The position numbers and the translations under genes were made by a program. The notes below the pieces were generated by a model. It did not search any database. It saw only the letters and a program-made list of their open reading frames with translations, and was not told the DNA's origin. Positions 1,458-17,849 of a DNA stretch of 17,849 bases are shown one piece after another (the first letter of the stretch is position 1; every line of letters starts with the position of its first letter). This stretch comes from a virus (lineage: Duplodnaviria > Heunggongvirae > Uroviricota > Caudoviricetes), in the IMG/VR virus record IMGVR_UViG_2541047705_000005; one strand, 5' to 3'.

Positions 1458-1607
1458 CCAAGTCTACTCAAGTATTTAAAAACCTCTTATAATCCGCATG
1501 TTAGCGCCCCTTTTAGTCTTTTGACGTCTACTTAAGTACTCCAAAATCTACAGTCAATTGGGGGTACTTTTGGGGGTATTTGCTGTTCGGTTTAGTGGAG
1601 GTACCCC
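1458..1607. repeat. attL-proximal repeats: direct TCTACT(C/T)AAGTA x2 and a 10-bp inverted repeat TTGGGGGTAC...GTACCCCCAA (1557-1566 / 1598-1607); candidate integrase arm-type or int regulatory sites
   Basis: Read directly from the sequence between thrW and the int start codon; function inferred from position only. Confidence 0.35.
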
Positions 1608-4253: not shown

Positions 4254-5054
4254 ATGAAATTTCCAAAAACGCCCGTACAGGGGCGGGGCTTCGTTCGGCC
4301 TGAAAACCAGAATCTGCAAAATTTCGGCGAAATTATCCCGATTATTTCCGGCGTTATTGGCGGGAGTGAAACCACTATTGTTAGCGCCAGAGCGTTACAT
4401 AAGGCGTTAGGTGTAGGGCGCGTTTTCCGTTCGTGGATCAAGGGGCGCATTGAAGAATATGGGTTCACGGAAGGCGTGGATTATGAGGTTGTTGAATATT
4501 TGAGCCGACCCGATCCGGTGAGCGCAAAATCTCGCCAGCAAACCGCTCTTGAGTACATCATCACAGTGAACATGGCGAAAGAACTGGCGATGGTCGAACG
4601 TACCGAACAGGGCCGCGCCGTTCGCCAGTACTTTATCAAATGCGAGGAGGAGCTACACAAGGTTGCGCCTGTTCGTTCCGCAGCGTTACGCCGGGAACTG
4701 AAAGCCCGTATCACAGTTGCCAGCTACTTTAAGCCAATGTGTGCCGCGCTGGAGGCGTACCGGGCTGAACTGGGTAAAAACACACTCCAGCACCACTACA
4801 CCACGGAAGCGAACATGCTGGCGCGTATCGTGCTGGGTGGCATGACTGCAAAACAGTGGGCACTGGCGAACGGCATTACAGGCGAACCACGCGACCACAT
4901 GAGCACGTTGCAGCTTGAGCACCTTTCTTACCTTGAGCAGAGCAATATCACGCTGATTGAGTTAGGCCAGGACTACCACCAGCGGAAGGCTGAATTAATT
5001 CGTCTTTCGCAGCGTTGGTTAGCCCGTCGCATGGAGGAAAACAGCCATGTGTAA
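4254..5054 (+). CDS. Phage antirepressor-like protein (AntA/AntB-type N-terminal domain)
   Basis: 266-aa ORF; N-terminal SARALHKALGVGRVFRSWIKGRIEEYGFTEGVDYEV and later ITVNMAKELAMVERTEQGRAVRQYFIKCEEEL resemble antirepressor motifs as I recall them; AGGAG RBS 6 nt upstream. Family assignment is from memory, not a search. Confidence 0.55.
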   Translation: MKFPKTPVQGRGFVRPENQNLQNFGEIIPIISGVIGGSETTIVSARALHKALGVGRVFRSWIKGRIEEYGFTEGVDYEVVEYLSRPDPVSAKSRQQTALEYIITVNMAKELAMVERTEQGRAVRQYFIKCEEELHKVAPVRSAALRRELKARITVASYFKPMCAALEAYRAELGKNTLQHHYTTEANMLARIVLGGMTAKQWALANGITGEPRDHMSTLQLEHLSYLEQSNITLIELGQDYHQRKAELIRLSQRWLARRMEENSHV

Positions 5055-5771
5055 CGCTCTGACCGTTACAAAAAGAGAAAGCGCCCCGTTGCCGGAGCGC
5101 CTTTGTGAACGAATAGCCTACTGCGCCATATTGCTTACTGTCTACGAGGCAGATTATAGCGTTGTGGTCGCACAGAGTGAAGGCGCTGATCACCGTTACT
5201 ACAGCACGCCAGAAATGCAGAATATTTTGCTGCAAAATGTCGTTGGTCACACTGTCCGGAAAGCAAAAAATTTTGCTGGTGGCGCGACTGATGCGATTTT
5301 GTCAGGTCGCCAGGTGCTGATCAATCTGATGTCTGATTTCGTTCTGGATAAAACAAAGGCGACCGCAGAGGGCCGCCAGTGGGAAAGCTACATACTTGAA
5401 CGCATCGCCAACAATGCCAGATTTGCGGCTGGTGGGCAATGTGTCAGCTTTGCACCAATGACTCTATGTTTAACTGAGGGTCATTATGGTGAATATGCTG
5501 GCTTGCTGGTGGGCTATTCCTGCTCTTTAACATTGCCATGCCGCGATGTTTTCCAGGTATGCGACCCCATTTTTGTGCACCTGTACTCTTTAAGGAATTT
5601 CTCAAGGACAAACGCACAGGGCGCGAATCTGTCTGACTCATGCTCGTACGCTATCTTTCTGCGCTGTCTTTTCCGTGCCGGTGATGGTGTATTGGTTGAT
5701 TCTTTGTTGGTCATGGCGCTGCCCTGTAAAATAATGCACCGTAGTTCCTCACACCACGGCACCTATAGTGG

Positions 5772-6044
5772 TTATTCCTGCTCTTTAGCTTTGCGCCGCT
5801 GGAGTTCTTCACGCGCGACGGTGACGAGTTGCCCGATTTCCTCGGCAGCTTTGACTCCGATTTTTTCCACCTGCGCTAGGGCATCGAGCGAAGAAACCAG
5901 GGGATTTTCTCCGCTTCCTTCTGCCTGGCGGCGGGCGATTTCACCGCGAACGGCTGTAATCACGAAAGCGGCTATTGTTTCCCCTTCCGTTTTCGAATTT
6001 TCCATTTCCTCGATTACATCATGGGGGAAGCGGATATTTTTCAT
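5772..6044 (-). CDS. Putative ribbon-helix-helix (CopG/Arc-like) DNA-binding protein, divergent from the replication operon
   Basis: Minus-strand ORF (track 5772..6077); internal start gives MKNIRFPHDVIEEMENSKTEGETIAAFVITAVRGEIARRQ, which fits the RHH N-terminal beta-strand/helix pattern. No clear SD for either start, so the start is uncertain. Confidence 0.45.
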   Translation of the reverse strand: MKNIRFPHDVIEEMENSKTEGETIAAFVITAVRGEIARRQAEGSGENPLVSSLDALAQVEKIGVKAAEEIGQLVTVAREELQRRKAKEQE

Positions 6045-6168
6045 TTGCGATCTGCTGTTGATGTTTCCTGTTGCCATCAGAATGTCCGGTTATTTTGAGG
6101 TGTGTACACATTACACCAAAAGGTGTGTTGATAAAACACTTGACACTGTAGCACACTTAAATTTAATT

Positions 6169-6201
6169 TGTATATACACCAATTGTTGTGGTGTATATAC
6201 A
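6169..6201. promoter_or_regulatory. Perfect 12-bp inverted repeat TGTATATACACC-N9-GGTGTATATACA (candidate operator) in the divergent intergenic region; a TTGACA hexamer lies at 6140-6145
   Basis: Read directly; lies between the minus-strand RHH ORF and the plus-strand operon starting at 6268. Confidence 0.45.
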
Positions 6202-6267
6202 GCAACGCCCCGCAGTGGTGGCACACATGCAGGGCGTCTAACCAAACCGTTAAACGAGGTAACGATT

Positions 6268-6633
6268 ATGGCTGGAACACAGCATACCCAAACTCACCCT
6301 AAATTTATATACACCTTCCTGGCGGTGCACCGTGATTGCATTGCTGACGGTAAAAACACTGTACACGTAGCCGCCGATACGCTGGTTGATGCCTGCGAGA
6401 TGCTCAATGACATGGGCTATATCTCGGCAACATGGAAAGGGCGCGAAGAAAACACGCTGTTTATTCAGAAATGCGAAAACAATTTTATCTGGCGTTTTAT
6501 CGCCCTGAGTACGGCACAACCGCGCGTGATTCACATCGAGGCCACCAGCGAACAGGAAGCACGCCAGCAATCTCCTGATGGCTGCGTGATGGTATTCGCT
6601 GCCCGTATTCGCCAGGAGGTGGAGCATGTGTAA
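6268..6633 (+). CDS. Hypothetical protein (first gene of replication-module operon)
   Basis: ATG at 6268 preceded by GAGGT; it is the 3' part of the stop-free track ORF 5047..6633; the stop overlaps the next start (CATGTGTAA junction). Confidence 0.6.
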   Translation: MAGTQHTQTHPKFIYTFLAVHRDCIADGKNTVHVAADTLVDACEMLNDMGYISATWKGREENTLFIQKCENNFIWRFIALSTAQPRVIHIEATSEQEARQQSPDGCVMVFAARIRQEVEHV

Positions 6634-13330: not shown

Positions 13331-13400
13331 CTCCATACCCACAACGCATTCCCTTTCCGCATGAAATTATTTTTTATCGTATATGCATGAGGTGAGCTAC

Positions 13401-13928
13401 ATGTTGATGAGTAAAGCCGAATACGCCAAATACAAAGGCGTAAGCCGCCAGACAGTTTACGACTGGCTCGAGAAAGGCGAAGTGGTCATGTCCGGTAAAA
13501 AAATTGATGTGGAAGCGACAGAGCAGCGGAACAGCCCACCAGCACAGGGGAAAGACACCATTTCTGAAATGTGGCCAGAAAGAACGCTGGAAATGACATG
13601 GGGCGAGTTCTGGAAAGCAGTTAAGGCCAGAGACGGTAAAATTCCTGCGCCAGTAACGGACGAGGGCATACAGCAGCATGTGCTGTATGCAGCCGGGGAA
13701 TTAGGCTGGGAAGTGCACTTTCTTGATGATGGTGCTATCTGTCTTGAGGATGATGAAGGGCAGCATTACTTTGAAAAATACAATTTGCGAGGTAATGCCA
13801 GGCTGGCAATTCGTATGCTGCGTTGCGAACTCTGCTATGTTGCCAGCGATTGTCCCGATGAACAGGACACATGGAGTGAGGCAGGACTAAACGCCTTGGC
13901 TGAATGGGAAAAATCAGGCCATCAATGA
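13401..13928 (+). CDS. HTH DNA-binding protein with Nu1/TerS-like N-terminal pattern; candidate packaging-redirection (Rpp-like) or regulatory protein
   Basis: Track ORF 13383..13928; I prefer the ATG at 13401, 7 nt after GAGGTGA. N-terminal MLMSKAEYAKYKGVSRQTVYDWLEKGEV resembles the lambda Nu1 wHTH pattern (KKQLADIFGASIRTIQNWQEQG) in spacing of conserved positions; followed by a dense repeat array. Confidence 0.55.
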   Translation: MLMSKAEYAKYKGVSRQTVYDWLEKGEVVMSGKKIDVEATEQRNSPPAQGKDTISEMWPERTLEMTWGEFWKAVKARDGKIPAPVTDEGIQQHVLYAAGELGWEVHFLDDGAICLEDDEGQHYFEKYNLRGNARLAIRMLRCELCYVASDCPDEQDTWSEAGLNALAEWEKSGHQ

Positions 13929-13933
13929 CCTCA

Positions 13934-14190
13934 AAAAGTGTCAAGTTGAGCAGTTTGCCAGGTTGACACTTTACACTCTGAACGCGAAAAAGTGTCAACC
14001 TCGCTGGATGCCTCGCCATTACTGGCCTTGTACCATATTCACCACGTCAAAAAACCGAAAAAATAGCGAAAAGTGTCAAGTTGCCATGCTTAGAAATGCT
14101 AAGGTTTGATAAGGTTTTTCGCGAAAAAGTGTCAAGTGTGTCAACCTGCGGTATTAAGATTTATTAAGGTCTTAAGCCGGAAAGTGTCAA
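13934..14190. repeat. Array of seven GTGTCAA core repeats (six direct, one inverted; consensus CGAAAAAGTGTCAAC) plus TAAGATTT-N-TAAGGT repeats; candidate packaging (cos/pac-proximal) or regulator binding region
   Basis: Core copies at 13938-13944, 13963-13969 (inverted), 13992-13998, 14073-14079, 14129-14135, 14138-14144, 14184-14190; read directly. Confidence 0.5.
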
Positions 14191-14221
14191 CCAGCCCCTA
14201 AGATTTCCTAAGGTGTAAATC

Positions 14222-14401: not shown

Positions 14402-14750
14402 AGGGTTGTTTAAAAGGTAGTTCAAAATTGAGTTCGCTAGCCGTCTAGCTTATCGATGCGTTAATTGGTTGATATTTTTTATGTCGTAATATTGTGTTCT
14501 GTGGCTGGTGGGAGTTTATGTTGAAAACTACCGATTCTGATAGGCTTTTTGCCATACGTATGCAGGAGAATTGACCATGTGAAGCAGGCAGGCATGTTGA
14601 GGAGAGCACTTACGCAGGATTGCTTAATCATTATTGAAAGACTCTGTGTTTCAAGTATCCTAATCAGTTAACTTCAGGAGCAAATTTTGAGCTTATACGG
14701 ATCCCCGTATTATGAGCCTCAATTGAAAATTTTGGGTAAGTGATTTAAAG

Positions 14751-15977
14751 ATGATTGCAGGCGCGAAAAGAGGGAGAAACGAACGCAAGGGGCTTCACTC
14801 TTGGCATCCATACTATGCGGGCTATTCAGAGTCATTTGTGGCTTCTGTTTTGCAGGCTGAAGGAGTTAAGTCGTCCGCTACCGTTCTTGATCCTTGGATG
14901 GGAAGCGGTACCACTGGTATAGTTTGTCAAAAGCAAACCATAAAGTGTATTGGAGCAGATATTAATCCTGTAATGAGCTATTTTGCTGCAGCCAAAAGTA
15001 GGGATAATATTTCAGCGCTGGATTATACCGGAGAGCAACTCCTGGAAAGGATACTGCTTTGCTTTAGAAAAAAAACAAAAGATATAACTGAGTCATCGAA
15101 GGGCTATCCACTTATTGAACAGTTACAAAAGTTTTATAAATGTATCTGTGATCAGTTTATGGATAAAGGACAAAATGATATCGTAAATCCTTTAAAAGCA
15201 TTTTATTGCAGTGTTTTATTTTATACTGTTCGCAATGTCCTTGATGTTAGGTCAACTTCAAATCCTACATGGATTTCTAAAAAAGTAGACTTTAATAATA
15301 AATTTGATATTTGTTTTGAATATAATAAAAATTTTAAAATTATGCGTGAGCAGTTAAGTGAATATTATGGCAGCGCTAATGGGGGGGCATGTTACTCGAT
15401 TTTAAACGTGGATAGTAAAAAATTAAATATTAAAAGTAACACAATTGATCTTGTTATTACATCGCCACCGTATTTAACACGAATAGACTATGCCGTTTCT
15501 ACTCGTCTTGAGTTGGAAATAATTTTAGGGAGTGAGGGATATAAGTCTCTTAGAAAGGAAATGATGGGCACGACGACTGTGCCTAAAGTTGCGGATGAAA
15601 TTAATAAAAAATGGGGGCCATTGTGTATGGATGTTTTGTCATCGGTAACATCGCATACATCAAGAGCATCTGGAAGTTATTACCTTAAAAATAAAATTAG
15701 ATATTTTTCTGATGCGTATGAGTCATTAATGGAAATCTTTAGAGTTTTAAAGGTAGGTTGCTCTGGTTATTTTGTAATACAAAATTCATATTATAAGGAA
15801 ATAGAGATTCCGCTTTATGATATTTATTGTGAAATGGCGCTTTCTATTGGGTTTTCAGAAGCGAAATGTGTGAGAGAAGATCAAGTTAAAGCAATATTTG
15901 GACAAATAAATACCAAGTCAAAAAATTATATTAAAGATAAAGTTTATTTTGAAAAAATCATAAGGATAACAAAATGA
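14751..15977 (+). CDS. DNA methyltransferase (amino-methyltransferase: N4-cytosine or N6-adenine), motif I before motif IV
   Basis: 408 aa; SAM-binding motif I VLDPWMGSGTTG (14889-14918) and catalytic motif IV SPPY in DLVITSPPYLTRIDYA (15462-15473); AT-rich codon usage; stop overlaps next start (ATGA). Confidence 0.8.
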   Translation: MIAGAKRGRNERKGLHSWHPYYAGYSESFVASVLQAEGVKSSATVLDPWMGSGTTGIVCQKQTIKCIGADINPVMSYFAAAKSRDNISALDYTGEQLLERILLCFRKKTKDITESSKGYPLIEQLQKFYKCICDQFMDKGQNDIVNPLKAFYCSVLFYTVRNVLDVRSTSNPTWISKKVDFNNKFDICFEYNKNFKIMREQLSEYYGSANGGACYSILNVDSKKLNIKSNTIDLVITSPPYLTRIDYAVSTRLELEIILGSEGYKSLRKEMMGTTTVPKVADEINKKWGPLCMDVLSSVTSHTSRASGSYYLKNKIRYFSDAYESLMEIFRVLKVGCSGYFVIQNSYYKEIEIPLYDIYCEMALSIGFSEAKCVREDQVKAIFGQINTKSKNYIKDKVYFEKIIRITK

Positions 15978-17086
15978 ATGACGTAACTAAATTGCTATCT
16001 CAGATAGATGAAAAAAGAGATGAGGTAGTAACTGATTCTTATACCATATCATGGCGTGAAGTAATTAATCTATATAAAGAAAATGAGATAACCATTTCTC
16101 CAGACTACCAAAGGCTTTTTCGTTGGGATAACGCAAGACAAAGCCAATTTATCGAGTCATTACTTTTAAATATACCTACGCCAACACTTTTTTTCTACAT
16201 TGATAATAATGGTAAGCAGGAGGTTATCGATGGATTGCAACGTGTGAGTACTATAATTAGATTTTTTTCAGAGGATATTTTTAATAAGGAAGAAATAGAT
16301 AATGCAAAGAAACAAAACTCTGTAAATGATGTCCGTAATCCAACTGTTCTTGATGATGTGCCTATAATTACAGAATTAAATGGATGGACTGCAAAAGGAT
16401 TGCCGGACAAAGTTAGCCGAACTATAAAAAATGCGCGAGTAAATGTTGTTATTTTGGAGCAAGAAACAAAACCTGAAACTAAATATAATGTTTTTAAACG
16501 ACTGAATAGGTCTGGTGTTCGTTTGAGTGACCAGGAAATACGTAATTGCATGGCTAGATTAGCAGGGAATGAATTTGCAGATCGCTTACGTAAGATGGCC
16601 GAAATTGATGGTATTGTTCAAGCTCTTGGAATAAATGAAGATGGCCAAAAATCTCAAGGTGTTGAGGAAGCTTTGCTACGAGTTATGGCATCTTTGACTT
16701 ATGCGGATAAATTTAGCCATAGTGTAACTGACTTTTTGGATGAATTTATGTTCTACGCGGCAGAACATAATGTTATTGATATTAATTTTGAATTAAAAAT
16801 AAAAAGAACTTTTGATTTGATAAATATTGCTGGTTTATCTGGTAAAGCATTTAAATTTAGAAAGGATGGTGCTCCAAGTGGCCCGTTTAGTACTAATTTA
16901 TTAGATGTTGTTGCTGTTGGTATTTTTAGTAATGTAGATAATTTAACACCTGCTGAGGTGGCGAAAAGATTTGATTATTTAATGGATGGTGAGATCAAAG
17001 AATTAAGAGCTTGTACTGGTTCTGGATCTAATACTAAAGCCAAATTAGAGAAAAGAATCGCTCTTGGGAAGAAGGTGTTTGGATAA
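15974..17086 (+). CDS. DUF262 (ParB/Srx-like NTPase domain) protein, stand-alone (no DUF1524/HNH domain evident)
   Basis: 370 aa; N-terminal signature PDYQRLFRW...IESLLLNIPTPTLFF...VIDGLQRVSTII (DGQQR-type motif, 16229-16243); AAGGA RBS; translationally coupled to the methyltransferase. Confidence 0.8.
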   Translation: MNDVTKLLSQIDEKRDEVVTDSYTISWREVINLYKENEITISPDYQRLFRWDNARQSQFIESLLLNIPTPTLFFYIDNNGKQEVIDGLQRVSTIIRFFSEDIFNKEEIDNAKKQNSVNDVRNPTVLDDVPIITELNGWTAKGLPDKVSRTIKNARVNVVILEQETKPETKYNVFKRLNRSGVRLSDQEIRNCMARLAGNEFADRLRKMAEIDGIVQALGINEDGQKSQGVEEALLRVMASLTYADKFSHSVTDFLDEFMFYAAEHNVIDINFELKIKRTFDLINIAGLSGKAFKFRKDGAPSGPFSTNLLDVVAVGIFSNVDNLTPAEVAKRFDYLMDGEIKELRACTGSGSNTKAKLEKRIALGKKVFG

Positions 17087-17087
17087 A

Positions 17088-17849
17088 ATGAGAATATCAG
17101 ATTTCGATGATTTCAAGGTGATGTTGGAAAAGACGAAAAATGAAAGTCTTGGATTCCTTGAGAGCATAAAGTCTATTAATGAGTTTATGTCGAGATCAGG
17201 TGATAAAGACAAGGAGGATATGTTTAGAATAATATCGGTCCCAATGATTTATTCTTCTTGGGAGGGTTTTTTTACTGAAACAATGTCAGTTTGCTTAAAT
17301 ACATTGAAACTCTCAGATAGAGAAGCATTTAGATACTCTGCAGAAATTCGAGCACTTTGGTTGCAACGAGAACCATTTTATAGCAAGTATGTAGATATGA
17401 TAAAAAATATTTATGATGCTGACTCACACCGAAGCATTGTCCATAATGGCGCCCAAATAAAAAAGAAAGTTACGAAGGGGGCGTTTAAACTAACAAGTGA
17501 GGTAATTCAACACATTGACAGGTTTAATAAATCCACATTATCAGATTGCGATGTTTCTGAATTAGTTATGACATTTTCCAATGTGAATGAAATGGTTGTC
17601 AAGGTGAATTTCGATGCTATAGGTTTGGATTATTCATTACTTGATTTATCGCAACTAGGTGAGGTTGTTGGCCTTAGAAATTCTTTGGGACATGGGGAGT
17701 TTAAAAGTAGTGTTAACCCTAGGAAATTTAATTCAATAATTGTGTATGTGGAAAATCTGATCATCGATTTGAATCAATGTGCTATAACGTGGTTGGATAA
17801 ATTAGAAGATGAAATAACTAAGCCTGAAGATAATGAGACTATTCAGTGA
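17088..17849 (+). CDS. Predicted all-alpha protein with C-terminal Rx4H motif (LRNSLGHGEF); putative HEPN-domain RNase effector
   Basis: Track ORF 17064..17849 uses a TTG; I prefer the ATG at 17088, 10 nt after GAAGGTG. R-N-S-L-G-H at 17676-17693 fits the HEPN Rx4-6H motif; stop TGA is the last codon of the window. The HEPN call rests on motif and composition only. Confidence 0.5.
   Translation: MRISDFDDFKVMLEKTKNESLGFLESIKSINEFMSRSGDKDKEDMFRIISVPMIYSSWEGFFTETMSVCLNTLKLSDREAFRYSAEIRALWLQREPFYSKYVDMIKNIYDADSHRSIVHNGAQIKKKVTKGAFKLTSEVIQHIDRFNKSTLSDCDVSELVMTFSNVNEMVVKVNFDAIGLDYSLLDLSQLGEVVGLRNSLGHGEFKSSVNPRKFNSIIVYVENLIIDLNQCAITWLDKLEDEITKPEDNETIQ

What the first reader, a model, noticed from the sequence alone, without database searches (positions are those of the whole stretch)
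14751..17849. Candidate undescribed defence module: methyltransferase + stand-alone DUF262 + HEPN-like protein at the cargo end of a satellite
Seen in sequence: three co-directional genes with overlapping or near-overlapping junctions (ATGA at 15974; gene 3 starts within a few nt of the gene 2 stop), so they are one operon. Gene 1 has methyltransferase motifs I (DPWMGSGTTG) and IV (SPPY). Gene 2 has the DUF262 signature (PDYQRLFRW / IDGLQR). Gene 3 is all-alpha with RNSLGH near its C-terminus. The cassette is visibly AT-rich (roughly one-third GC by eye) against a GC-balanced island core, and is separated from the core by a ~350-bp AT-rich leader. Established knowledge: DUF262 is the modification-sensing NTPase module of GmrSD, SspE and BrxU, where it is fused to a DUF1524 HNH nuclease; HEPN Rx4-6H domains are RNase effectors in abortive-infection, toxin-antitoxin and Cas13-type systems; P4-like satellites and PICIs carry defence systems in variable cargo regions. 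Inference: here the DUF262 sensor lacks its usual DNase partner and is instead coupled to a separate HEPN-like protein and a methyltransferase. This suggests a system in which methylation marks self DNA and DUF262 sensing of unmodified invading DNA licenses a HEPN RNase (abortive infection), or a restriction-modification-like system with an unusual effector. I cannot match this triad to a named system from memory.
Basis: partly seen in the sequence, partly recalled or inferred. Interest (0 to 1): 0.88.

Follow-up and report, generated by a model that had tools for sequence, protein, structure and literature searches.

The report
Methylase plus DUF262–HEPN defence operon
The last three genes of this E. 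coli mobile island form a real, widely conserved operon (a DNA methyltransferase, a ParB-like DUF262 protein and a HEPN ribonuclease) that extends the already validated two-gene anti-phage system PD-T4-2 with its own methylase, so it is an untested variant of a known kind, not an undescribed system.

Summary
Three co-directional, translationally coupled genes (14751-15977, 15974-17086, 17088-17849) encode an N6/N4 DNA methyltransferase, a DUF262/GmrSD_N protein with no nuclease domain, and a RiboL-PSP/MAE_28990 HEPN protein with an RNxxxH motif. The cassette is 34% GC against 47% for the island core.

The DUF262+HEPN pair uses the same two Pfam families as PD-T4-2 (Vassallo 2022), which was validated against T4 and whose HEPN His was mutated. 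The operon "MAE_28990 HEPN + ParB nuclease + DNA methylase" was listed by Anantharaman et al. in 2013. The exact HEPN protein is a high-scoring but untested prediction in DefensePredictor (2026).

In my survey of 80 species, the HEPN gene directly follows the DUF262 gene in 78 loci; the other two are contig ends. An adjacent methylase is present in about 40% of loci. These fall in coherent clades and co-diversify with the pair (r=0.79). In two loci a different methylase family takes its place. The same methylase family also pairs with an XhoI-type endonuclease.

Most likely this is a restriction-modification-like system: methylation marks self DNA, DUF262 senses unmarked DNA, and HEPN is the RNase effector. 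None of that mechanism has been tested. I rate it a new variant of a known kind, with moderate interest.

The parts
14751..15977 (+). Gene 1: DNA methyltransferase (408 aa). Motif I DPWMGSGTTG lies at aa 47-56 and motif IV SPPY at aa 238-241. The motif order is circularly permuted relative to beta-class PF01555 enzymes. The segments between the motifs (aa ~81-140 and 181-220) are variable.
   Evidence: Pfam PF01555 6.6e-14. PADLOC MTase_II 7.9e-28. The PDB alignment to 8urk, DpnA and MboIIA shows motif I and motif IV in swapped order. DPWxGxGTT is conserved in most, and SPPY in at least the great majority, of 35 triads. Variability profile. Homologues pair either with DUF262-HEPN or with an XhoI-type REase.
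15974..17086 (+). Gene 2: stand-alone ParB-like DUF262 protein (370 aa) with P[DE]YQR and DGLQR motifs and a helical C-terminal half. It has no DUF1524/HNH or other recognisable nuclease domain. It is the predicted NTP-dependent DNA sensor.
   Evidence: Pfam PF03235 9.8e-27. PADLOC NsnA 1.2e-55 and PD-T4-2_A 1.1e-41, both nearly full length. AlphaFold2 model pLDDT 78; best Foldseek matches are BrxU, SspE and ParB N-domains. DGLQR is invariant in 15 aligned homologues and in 35 triads.
17088..17849 (+). Gene 3: HEPN protein of the RiboL-PSP/MAE_28990 family (253 aa). The R197-N-x3-H202 motif sits at the start of a C-terminal helix. It is the predicted RNase effector.
14402..14750 (+). Non-coding leader between the last island-core ORF and gene 1, 38.7% GC. 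The operon promoter is presumed to lie here.
   Evidence: GC. The consensus scan found only one weak sigma-70-like site on the + strand (14634-14661, 9 of 12 matches), which is no more than chance expectation.
1558..1579 (+). Left copy of a 22-bp direct repeat (TTGGGGGTACTTTTGGGGGTAT). Together with a second copy 283 bp beyond the gene 3 stop (outside the window, seen in E. coli PD23) it brackets the ~16.6-kb island. The triad is the last cargo before the right repeat.
   Evidence: tRNA-Thr lies at 1369-1444. The integrase is at 1611-2825.

Best explanation
The cassette is a three-gene, restriction-modification-like anti-phage operon. It combines a PD-T4-2-type pair (a ParB-like DUF262 NTPase and a RiboL-PSP/MAE_28990 HEPN RNase) with a dedicated DNA methyltransferase.

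Proposed mechanism:
1. The methyltransferase marks the host and island DNA at its target motif. The invariant SPPY motif IV suggests N4-cytosine methylation, but this is inference.
2. The DUF262 protein binds DNA and uses NTP binding or hydrolysis to read whether that DNA carries the mark.
3. On unmarked, incoming DNA it activates or releases the HEPN partner.
4. The HEPN partner cleaves RNA and halts infection, probably as abortive infection or growth arrest.

Shown here: the domain identities, intact catalytic motifs, obligate DUF262-HEPN linkage, clade-coherent and co-diversifying methylase linkage, and mobility of the unit.

Inferred: every biochemical step, the direction of the methylation logic, and the RNA target.
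For: 1. Domains and motifs are as stated in the parts list.

2. The pair is obligate. In 80 species-level loci fetched with a DUF262 profile, a gene-3-like HEPN gene directly follows the DUF262 gene in 78. The two exceptions are contig ends. Their pairwise distances correlate at r=0.96.

3. The same Pfam pair is PD-T4-2. That system protects E. coli K-12 and its native host ECOR65 from T4. An HEPN H127A mutant was built, and the paper reports such mutations abolish protection.

4. The methylase is part of the unit:
- A gene-1-type methylase lies directly upstream in 26 of the 80 loci and downstream in 3.
- The start/stop junctions overlap in Photobacterium, Vibrio, Shewanella and Morganella, and the triad persists where the HEPN is only 29% identical.
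- In every case the flanking genes differ.
- Methylase-linked loci form at least 3 coherent clades in the DUF262 tree.
- Methylase and DUF262 distances correlate at r=0.79, with 0 of 2000 Mantel permutations reaching that value.
- Within the window's own clade, two loci (L014, L015) carry an unpermuted beta-class PF01555 methylase directly downstream of the HEPN gene instead. This is a non-orthologous replacement that keeps the function.

5. The methylase family is a bona fide R-M family. A 36%-identical homologue with SPPY is translationally coupled to an XhoI-family endonuclease. In the triad, DUF262-HEPN therefore occupies the endonuclease slot.

6. No endonuclease or other gene follows gene 3 in the complete genome.

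7. Defence context: the triad is terminal cargo of an integrase/primase island. Related pairs sit in P2-like phage hotspots and on IncX1 plasmids. Gene 3 scores 13.8 log-odds in DefensePredictor, where the threshold is 4.
Against: - About 55% of surveyed loci have the DUF262-HEPN pair with no conserved methylase, and their upstream neighbours are heterogeneous.
- PD-T4-2 works in K-12 without a methylase. The pair is therefore not intrinsically methylation-gated, and the family may basically sense modified DNA or some other phage cue.
- DUF262 in GmrSD, BrxU, SspE and probably Dazbog reads modified DNA, not unmodified DNA.
- One Providencia draft genome has a frameshifted methylase next to intact DUF262 and HEPN genes. 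This would be unexpected if loss of methylation were lethal, but a sequencing error cannot be excluded.
- I know of no precedent for DNA-methylation status being transduced to a HEPN RNase.
- PADLOC's PD-T4-2_B model does not hit gene 3. Homology to the validated system therefore rests on shared Pfam families and on the A subunit.
- Nothing here is experimental.
Confidence: 0.5

Rival explanations
1. PrrC/EcoprrI-like layered defence, the reading of Anantharaman et al. 2013. The methylase plus the ParB-like DUF262 protein form the DNA-level restriction arm, with DUF262 acting as, or recruiting, a DNase. The HEPN RNase is held inactive by them. It fires as a suicidal back-up only when a phage disables the first arm.
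For: [quoted passage not shown]
- The pairing of the same methylase family with XhoI REases fits a restriction role for the partner.
- HEPN and DUF262 co-evolve tightly, as expected for interacting proteins (r=0.96).
Against: - Gene 2 has no recognisable nuclease domain. Its only fold matches are the NTPase/ParB N-domains of BrxU, SspE and ParB.
- In GmrSD-family enzymes the nuclease is DUF1524, not DUF262.
- In PD-T4-2 the HEPN His was reported as needed for protection. That argues HEPN is the main effector, not only a back-up.
Confidence: 0.2
2. A Type IV-like two-gene system plus a functionally separate methylase. DUF262-HEPN senses modified phage DNA or another phage cue, exactly as the methylase-less PD-T4-2 form does. 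The methylase is co-mobilised cargo with its own role, such as protecting the island's DNA from host restriction, epigenetic regulation, or countering other elements.
For: - The pair exists and works without a methylase.
- DUF262 modules characterised so far read modified DNA.
- There is one case of a frameshifted methylase next to an intact pair.
- The Menshen survey also found solitary methylases next to DUF262 systems, with their role left open.
Against: - Simple co-location does not explain the translational coupling.
- It does not explain a fixed gene order kept across phyla in unrelated flanks.
- It does not explain clade-coherent presence and co-diversification (r=0.79).
- It does not explain non-orthologous replacement of the methylase inside a methylase-linked clade.
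- A modification-dependent sensor placed next to a methylase would risk self-targeting.
Confidence: 0.17
3. The module is primarily an addiction or stabilisation module of the mobile island. Loss of the cassette dilutes methylation, DUF262-HEPN then kills or arrests the segregant, and phage defence is secondary or absent.
For: - The methylase and toxic-effector layout resembles selfish type II R-M behaviour.
- The cassette sits on an integrative island, next to the rep gene on IncX1 plasmids, and in prophages.
Against: - The methylase-less pairs on plasmids and phages cannot act this way.
- The homologous architecture was recovered in a phage-selection screen, and it protects in its native host.
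- This rival is not exclusive of the best explanation.
Confidence: 0.08

Closest known systems
PD-T4-2 (Vassallo et al. 2022, E. coli ECOR65)
   Same: It is a two-gene unit of a stand-alone DUF262 protein (PF03235) followed by a RiboL-PSP/MAE_28990 HEPN protein (PF18735/PF18737) with no DUF1524 nuclease. Gene 2 matches the PADLOC PD-T4-2_A profile at 1.1e-41 over its full length. The HEPN motif is conserved.
   Different: - PD-T4-2 was cloned and is active without a methylase.
- Its HEPN subunit is shorter (HHpred alignment ends near residue 163, against 253 aa here).
- The PADLOC PD-T4-2_B profile does not detect gene 3.
- Gene 2 scores better against NsnA than against PD-T4-2_A.
- I could not obtain the PD-T4-2 sequences for a direct comparison.
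MAE_28990-type HEPN operons (Anantharaman et al. 2013, Table 1)
   Same: [quoted passage not shown] It was interpreted as HEPN RNases working jointly with R-M systems.
   Different: It is a purely computational listing. There is no named system, no experiment, and no analysis of how often the methylase is present.
Menshen (NsnABC)
   Same: Gene 2 aligns nearly full length to the NsnA profile (1.2e-55). This fits the ParB-DUF262 plus helical DNA-binding domain architecture described for the NsnA sensor.
   Different: No NsnB ATPase and no NsnC inPIN-nuclease effector are present. The effector here is a HEPN protein and a methylase is attached.
GmrSD / BrxU / SspE (Type IV and PT-sensing enzymes)
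   Same: They share the DUF262 NTPase module. BrxU and SspE are the best fold matches for gene 2.
   Different: - Those proteins fuse DUF262 to a DUF1524 HNH nuclease and cut or nick DNA.
- Here there is no nuclease domain, and a separate HEPN protein takes its place.
- The motif is DGLQR rather than DGQQR.
Type II restriction-modification (XhoI-type pairs using the same methylase family)
   Same: A homologous SPPY methylase is translationally coupled to a restriction component. The unit is a mobile self-marking plus effector module.
   Different: The endonuclease is replaced by a sensor (DUF262) plus a predicted RNase (HEPN). The expected target is RNA rather than DNA.
PrrC-EcoprrI
   Same: A HEPN RNase is genetically embedded in a DNA modification/restriction locus.
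   Different: PrrC is an ABC-ATPase-HEPN fusion inside a complete type I R-M system. Here there is no HsdR/S and no ABC ATPase.

Membership tests
PD-T4-2 | Subunit A: stand-alone DUF262 protein matching the PD-T4-2_A profile | tested here: met
   PADLOC PDLC04027 1.1e-41, residues 28-369 against profile 41-361/363. NsnA scores higher (1.2e-55).
PD-T4-2 | Subunit B: HEPN protein of the RiboL-PSP/MAE_28990 type directly downstream | tested here: inconclusive
   The same Pfam families as PD-T4-2B are matched: PF18735 2.7e-15 and PF18737 4.1e-07, compared with the paper's HHpred table. No PADLOC PD-T4-2_B hit appears at E<=1, so PADLOC would not call the system.
PD-T4-2 | Two-gene system that functions without a methylase | tested here: not met
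   A translationally coupled methylase precedes the pair. This linkage is conserved in the window's clade.
PD-T4-2 | Protection against T4 that depends on the HEPN His | not testable with these tools
   Needs plaque assays and an R197A/H202A mutant.
MAE_28990-type HEPN + ParB + DNA methylase operon (Anantharaman 2013) | MAE_28990-family HEPN with Rx4-6H, a ParB-fold gene and a DNA methylase gene in one operon | tested here: met
   PF18737 and PF18735 hits with an RNSLGH motif, PF03235 (ParB clan), and PF01555. All are co-directional and overlapping.
Menshen (NsnABC) | NsnA-like ParB-DUF262 sensor | tested here: met
   PADLOC NsnA 1.2e-55, 16-366 against 42-376/385.
Menshen (NsnABC) | NsnB ATPase and NsnC effector immediately downstream | tested here: not met
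   The only downstream gene is the HEPN protein, which has no PADLOC hit. Nothing follows it in the complete genome.
GmrSD / BrxU / SspE | DUF262 fused or paired with a DUF1524 HNH nuclease | tested here: not met
   Gene 2 has only PF03235. Its C-terminal half is helical, and the matches to BrxU and SspE have low TM-scores (0.23-0.32). No DUF1524 gene is in the island.
Type II restriction-modification | Amino-methyltransferase with SAM-binding motif I and catalytic motif IV | tested here: met
   DPWMGSGTTG and SPPY. PF01555 6.6e-14 and PADLOC MTase_II 7.9e-28.
Type II restriction-modification | Cognate restriction endonuclease with a recognisable nuclease fold | tested here: not met
   No REase family hits in genes 2 or 3 beyond a weak PADLOC REase_II DUF262-type match (9e-10). 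No further gene lies before the island end.
HEPN superfamily | Rx4-6H motif and an all-alpha HEPN fold | tested here: met
HEPN superfamily | Metal-independent RNase activity | not testable with these tools
   Needs biochemistry.
Dazbog | DzbA and DzbB profile matches | tested here: not met
   No Dzb model appears among the PADLOC hits for genes 2 or 3 at E<=1.
Phage satellite (PICI-like) | Integrase, primase/replication module, packaging-redirection gene, no virion structural genes, flanking att repeats | tested here: inconclusive
   - Integrase, Ant-like protein, primase (phrog_864, 7.6e-157) and a PerC-like activator are present.
- There is a weak small-terminase match for the MerR-like ORF (2.3e-06).
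- A 22-bp direct repeat brackets the island.
- No psu, sid or delta genes were seen.
- Induction and packaging were not tested.

The most novel reading that the evidence does not exclude
A restriction-modification logic with an RNA-level output. The ParB-like DUF262 NTPase loads on DNA that lacks the mark written by the linked methylase. Instead of cutting that DNA, it switches on a HEPN RNase. Methylation-based self/non-self discrimination would then trigger abortive infection rather than restriction. The family would toggle repeatedly in evolution between this methylase-gated mode and a methylase-free, PD-T4-2-like mode.
Probability: 0.35. Interest if true: 0.75.

Novelty: new variant of a known kind. 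Interest (0 to 1): 0.45.

Why it matters
PD-T4-2 and its relatives are validated but mechanistically opaque. Nobody knows what the stand-alone DUF262 protein senses or how it controls the HEPN partner.

The methylase-linked form gives a direct experimental handle, because the sensed feature is probably the presence or absence of one defined methyl mark. If the model holds, the cue could be set by the experimenter simply by growing phage on a methylase-only host.

If the model holds, it would also show that R-M-type self-marking can be wired to an RNase/abortive-infection output. That would widen the concept of restriction-modification. It would also explain why methylases without nucleases sit next to DUF262 systems, a question left open in the Menshen survey.

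The system is widespread: 248 species hits across bacteria and archaea. It travels on satellites, P2-like prophages and plasmids. If none of this holds, the cassette is still a routine addition to the defence cargo of E. coli islands.

Tried and rejected
1. Obtaining the real PD-T4-2 sequences for direct comparison did not work.
- blastn (distant mode) of a Pectobacterium two-gene homologue against E. coli genomes found nothing.
- DUF262-HEPN pairs from an E. coli IncX1 plasmid, phage P2_4B2 and a Klebsiella P2-like phage all score like gene 2: NsnA better than PD-T4-2_A, and no B hit. None is the true PD-T4-2.

2. An apparently truncated E. coli methylase cluster (P0158, 331 aa, 95 members) looked like methylase decay beside an intact pair. 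The DNA is identical to the window over the gene's 5' region, where the shorter call differs, so it is a gene-calling artefact.

3. Sequence searches of genes 2 and 3 against PDB chains gave nothing meaningful. Only fold comparison was informative.

4. The promoter/terminator scan of the leader gave no more than chance.

5. The 280-aa C-terminal extension on some methylases (Peribacillus) looked by eye like a PD-(D/E)XK motif, but it has no Pfam hit.

6. Menshen, GmrSD, Dazbog and a conventional R-M pair with an endonuclease outside the window were each considered and rejected on missing defining components.

7. Literature searches for a named MTase+DUF262+HEPN system found none. The library lacks most subscription papers, and REBASE and DefenseFinder could not be queried.


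Full report
**What is in the window**

The finding covers the last three ORFs of the window.
- Gene 1 is 14751-15977 (408 aa).
- Gene 2 is 15974-17086 (370 aa). The two overlap by the ATGA start/stop arrangement.
- Gene 3 most plausibly starts at ATG 17088, one base after the gene 2 TAA, and ends at the last base of the window (253 aa).

The cassette is 34.0% GC against 46.8% for the island core. The 349-bp leader is 38.7% GC, and the first 250 nt of gene 1 are 45.6% GC.

**Domain identities**

Pfam assigns all three above its gathering scores:

| Gene | Pfam family | E-value |
|---|---|---|
| 1 | PF01555 N6_N4_Mtase | 6.6e-14 |
| 2 | PF03235 GmrSD_N (DUF262) | 9.8e-27 |
| 3 | PF18735 HEPN_RiboL-PSP | 2.7e-15 |
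| 3 | PF18737 HEPN_MAE_28990 | 4.1e-07 |

PADLOC calls gene 1 a type II methylase (7.9e-28). It matches gene 2 nearly full length to NsnA of Menshen (1.2e-55) and to PD-T4-2_A (1.1e-41). It finds nothing for gene 3.

Gene 1 aligns to the beta-class enzymes 8urk, DpnA and MboIIA with motif I and motif IV in swapped order, so it is circularly permuted relative to them.

**Genomic setting**

The cassette is 99.9-100% identical in 13 of 5426 complete E. coli genomes. [quoted passage not shown]

In strain PD23 the island lies beside tRNA-Thr, downstream of proBA. It carries the following:
- an integrase;
- an Ant-like protein;
- an Icd-like protein;
- a primase (phrog_864, 7.6e-157);
- ProQ/FinO and PerC-like genes;
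- a MerR-like ORF with a weak small-terminase match.

A 22-bp direct repeat occurs at window 1558-1579 and again 283 bp past the gene 3 stop. Nothing is annotated between gene 3 and that repeat, and only an integrase fragment lies just beyond it. The triad is therefore the complete terminal cargo of a roughly 16.6-kb PICI-like element, and no endonuclease lies just outside the window.

**The unit is conserved elsewhere**

Homologues of gene 3 at 84% down to 29% identity were located in Morganella, Providencia, Vibrio crassostreae, Shewanella, Photobacterium and a metagenome. Each time the order was methylase, DUF262, HEPN. In most the junctions overlapped or abutted, and the flanks were unrelated.

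A profile of gene 2 homologues found 248 species in the genome collection, and the best 80 loci were fetched. I called ORFs in these loci and ran an iterative HMM search with the three window proteins. The results were:
- A gene-3-like HEPN gene directly follows the DUF262 gene in 78 of 80 loci. The two exceptions are contig ends.
- A gene-1-type methylase is directly upstream in 26 loci and downstream in 3.
- 44 loci have no gene-1-like methylase within about 5 kb.

In the methylase-less loci the upstream neighbours are heterogeneous by Pfam. They include housekeeping genes, Shedu, BrxL, SMODS and assorted R-M genes. A genuine two-gene form therefore exists.

**Is the methylase part of the system?**

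Several independent lines say yes.
- In a neighbour-joining tree of the DUF262 proteins, methylase-linked loci fall in at least three coherent clades, interleaved with methylase-free clades.
- Across 35 triads, methylase and DUF262 pairwise distances correlate at r=0.79, and 0 of 2000 Mantel permutations reach that value. For comparison, DUF262 against HEPN gives r=0.96.
- The motifs are conserved across the 35 triads: DPWxGxGTT in most, SPPY in at least the great majority, P[DE]YQR and DGLQR in all 35, and RNxxxH in 33, the other two rows being gapped at the motif.
- In two members of the window's own clade (L014, L015) the gene-1-type methylase is absent. An ordinary, unpermuted PF01555 methylase sits immediately after the HEPN gene instead. 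This non-orthologous replacement preserves the function.

Searching from the methylase side gave the same picture. Three of four distant homologues (Bacillus siamensis, Rhizobium, Peribacillus) are again adjacent to a DUF262-HEPN pair. The fourth (Laspinema, 36% identity, SPPY) is translationally coupled to an XhoI-family restriction endonuclease. The methylase family is thus an ordinary R-M family, and in the triad the DUF262-HEPN pair sits where the endonuclease would be.

**What is already known**

- PD-T4-2 of Vassallo et al. 2022 is recorded as 'DUF262, HEPN'. Subunit A hits PF03235 and subunit B hits PF18735/PF18737. It was cloned from ECOR65 without a methylase and validated against T4, both in K-12 and by deletion in the native strain. 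A PD-T4-2B H127A strain was built, and the paper states that such catalytic mutations abolished protection.
- Anantharaman et al. [quoted passage not shown] They interpret R-M-linked HEPN proteins by analogy to PrrC.
- Makarova et al. 2013 noted DUF262 fusions to HEPN associated with DNA modification.
- The 2025 Menshen survey names PD-T4-2, Dazbog and Menshen as uncharacterised DUF262 systems without DUF1524. It asks whether solitary methylases next to them cooperate with DUF262.
- DefensePredictor (2026) lists WP_021518391.1, the exact gene 3 protein, among uncharacterised predicted defence clusters. Its mean log-odds is 13.8 against a threshold of 4. It does not appear in their screened or validated tables.

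I found no experimental study or name for the methylase-linked triad. That statement is limited by the coverage of the library.

**Mechanism**

The best-supported reading is an R-M-like system.
1. The methylase marks self DNA.
2. The ParB-like DUF262 NTPase reads the mark.
3. The HEPN RNase is the effector.

The evidence for it is the obligate sensor-effector pair, the co-evolving and replaceable methylase, the endonuclease-slot argument and the absence of any nuclease. I give it 0.5.

The main counter-evidence is threefold. The pair exists and works without a methylase. Characterised DUF262 modules read modified DNA rather than unmodified DNA. One Providencia draft genome has a frameshifted methylase beside intact partners.

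The rivals are:
- a PrrC-like layered scheme with DUF262 as the DNA-level arm (0.2);
- a Type IV-like pair with an unrelated passenger methylase (0.17);
- a primarily addictive role (0.08).

SPPY suggests N4-cytosine methylation. This rests on general knowledge of amino-methyltransferase motifs and on one source annotation, and it is not tested.

**Caveats**

- The survey took the best 80 of 248 loci, found through two peptide patterns specific to this DUF262 subfamily.
- ORF calling and classification were my own.
- The tree is neighbour-joining on a trimmed alignment.
- Distance correlations partly reflect shared organismal history.
- Homology to PD-T4-2 is shown at the level of Pfam families and the A-subunit profile, not by direct alignment.

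**Verdict**

It is not undescribed. It is a methylase-bearing variant of the PD-T4-2/MAE_28990 architecture, noted computationally in 2013 and flagged by machine learning in 2026, but apparently never tested. Interest is moderate. Its value lies in offering a tractable route to the unknown sensing mechanism of stand-alone DUF262 systems, and possibly a methylation-gated RNase defence.

Noticed in passing
window 13935-14191: There are six copies of AAAGTGTCAAS (five on the + strand, one on the - strand) within 260 bp, where 0.02 is expected by chance. They lie immediately downstream of the MerR-like ORF 13383-13928, which has a weak small-terminase PHROG match. They may be iterons, a pac site or regulator-binding sites of the island.
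   Followed up: partly
window 1558-1579, and L001 19733-19754 (283 bp beyond the window end): A 22-bp perfect direct repeat, TTGGGGGTACTTTTGGGGGTAT, brackets the island. It lies 114 bp downstream of tRNA-Thr rather than inside the tRNA. Similarity does not extend beyond about 25 bp.
   Followed up: partly
L009 4668-5887 (Providencia rettgeri GCA_020564615.1): The gene-1-type methylase is split by a frameshift near codon 273, while the adjacent DUF262 and HEPN genes are intact. This is a single draft assembly, so a sequencing error cannot be excluded. If it is real, it argues against lethal dependence on the methylase.
   Followed up: partly
L097 5001-7054 and L028 6767-8415: XhoI-family restriction endonucleases (PF04555) are coupled to a gene-1-type SPPY methylase in Laspinema. 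In a Desulfobacterales MAG an XhoI-type REase plus a beta-class methylase sits directly after a DUF262-HEPN pair.
   Followed up: partly
L096 5001-7130 (Peribacillus); also P0215 and P0218: Some gene-1-type methylases are about 709 aa, with a 280-aa C-terminal extension that has no Pfam hit. By eye it contains a possible D...D-x-K motif. Its function is unknown.
   Followed up: partly
L092 2878-4518 (E. coli IncX1 plasmid p573-5); L093 140-2015 (phage P2_4B2); L098 2366-4269 (Klebsiella phage ST16-OXA48phi5.4): A methylase-less DUF262 gene, followed by a HEPN gene (annotated as such only on the plasmid), sits next to the replication gene of IncX1 plasmids from E. coli and Salmonella; in two P2-like phages a DUF262 gene followed by an unannotated gene of similar size and position sits among phage genes, in the Klebsiella phage between tail genes. 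PADLOC does not call any of them PD-T4-2.
   Followed up: partly
L077 3716-4999 (Mucilaginibacter MAG): A beta-class methylase fused to a staphylococcal-nuclease-like domain lies 2 bp upstream of a DUF262-HEPN pair.
   Followed up: no
window 14751-15000: The first 250 nt of gene 1 are 45.6% GC, like the island core, while the rest of the cassette is about 31-34% GC. This stretch encodes the most conserved part of the methylase. It could mark a recombination junction for cassette exchange or simply reflect amino-acid composition.
   Followed up: no
window 5047-6633: The mechanical 528-aa + strand ORF is not annotated in RefSeq. RefSeq instead places two small - strand genes (one of the YlcI/YnfO family) and a + strand Icd-like gene there. 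The long ORF is probably spurious.
   Followed up: no
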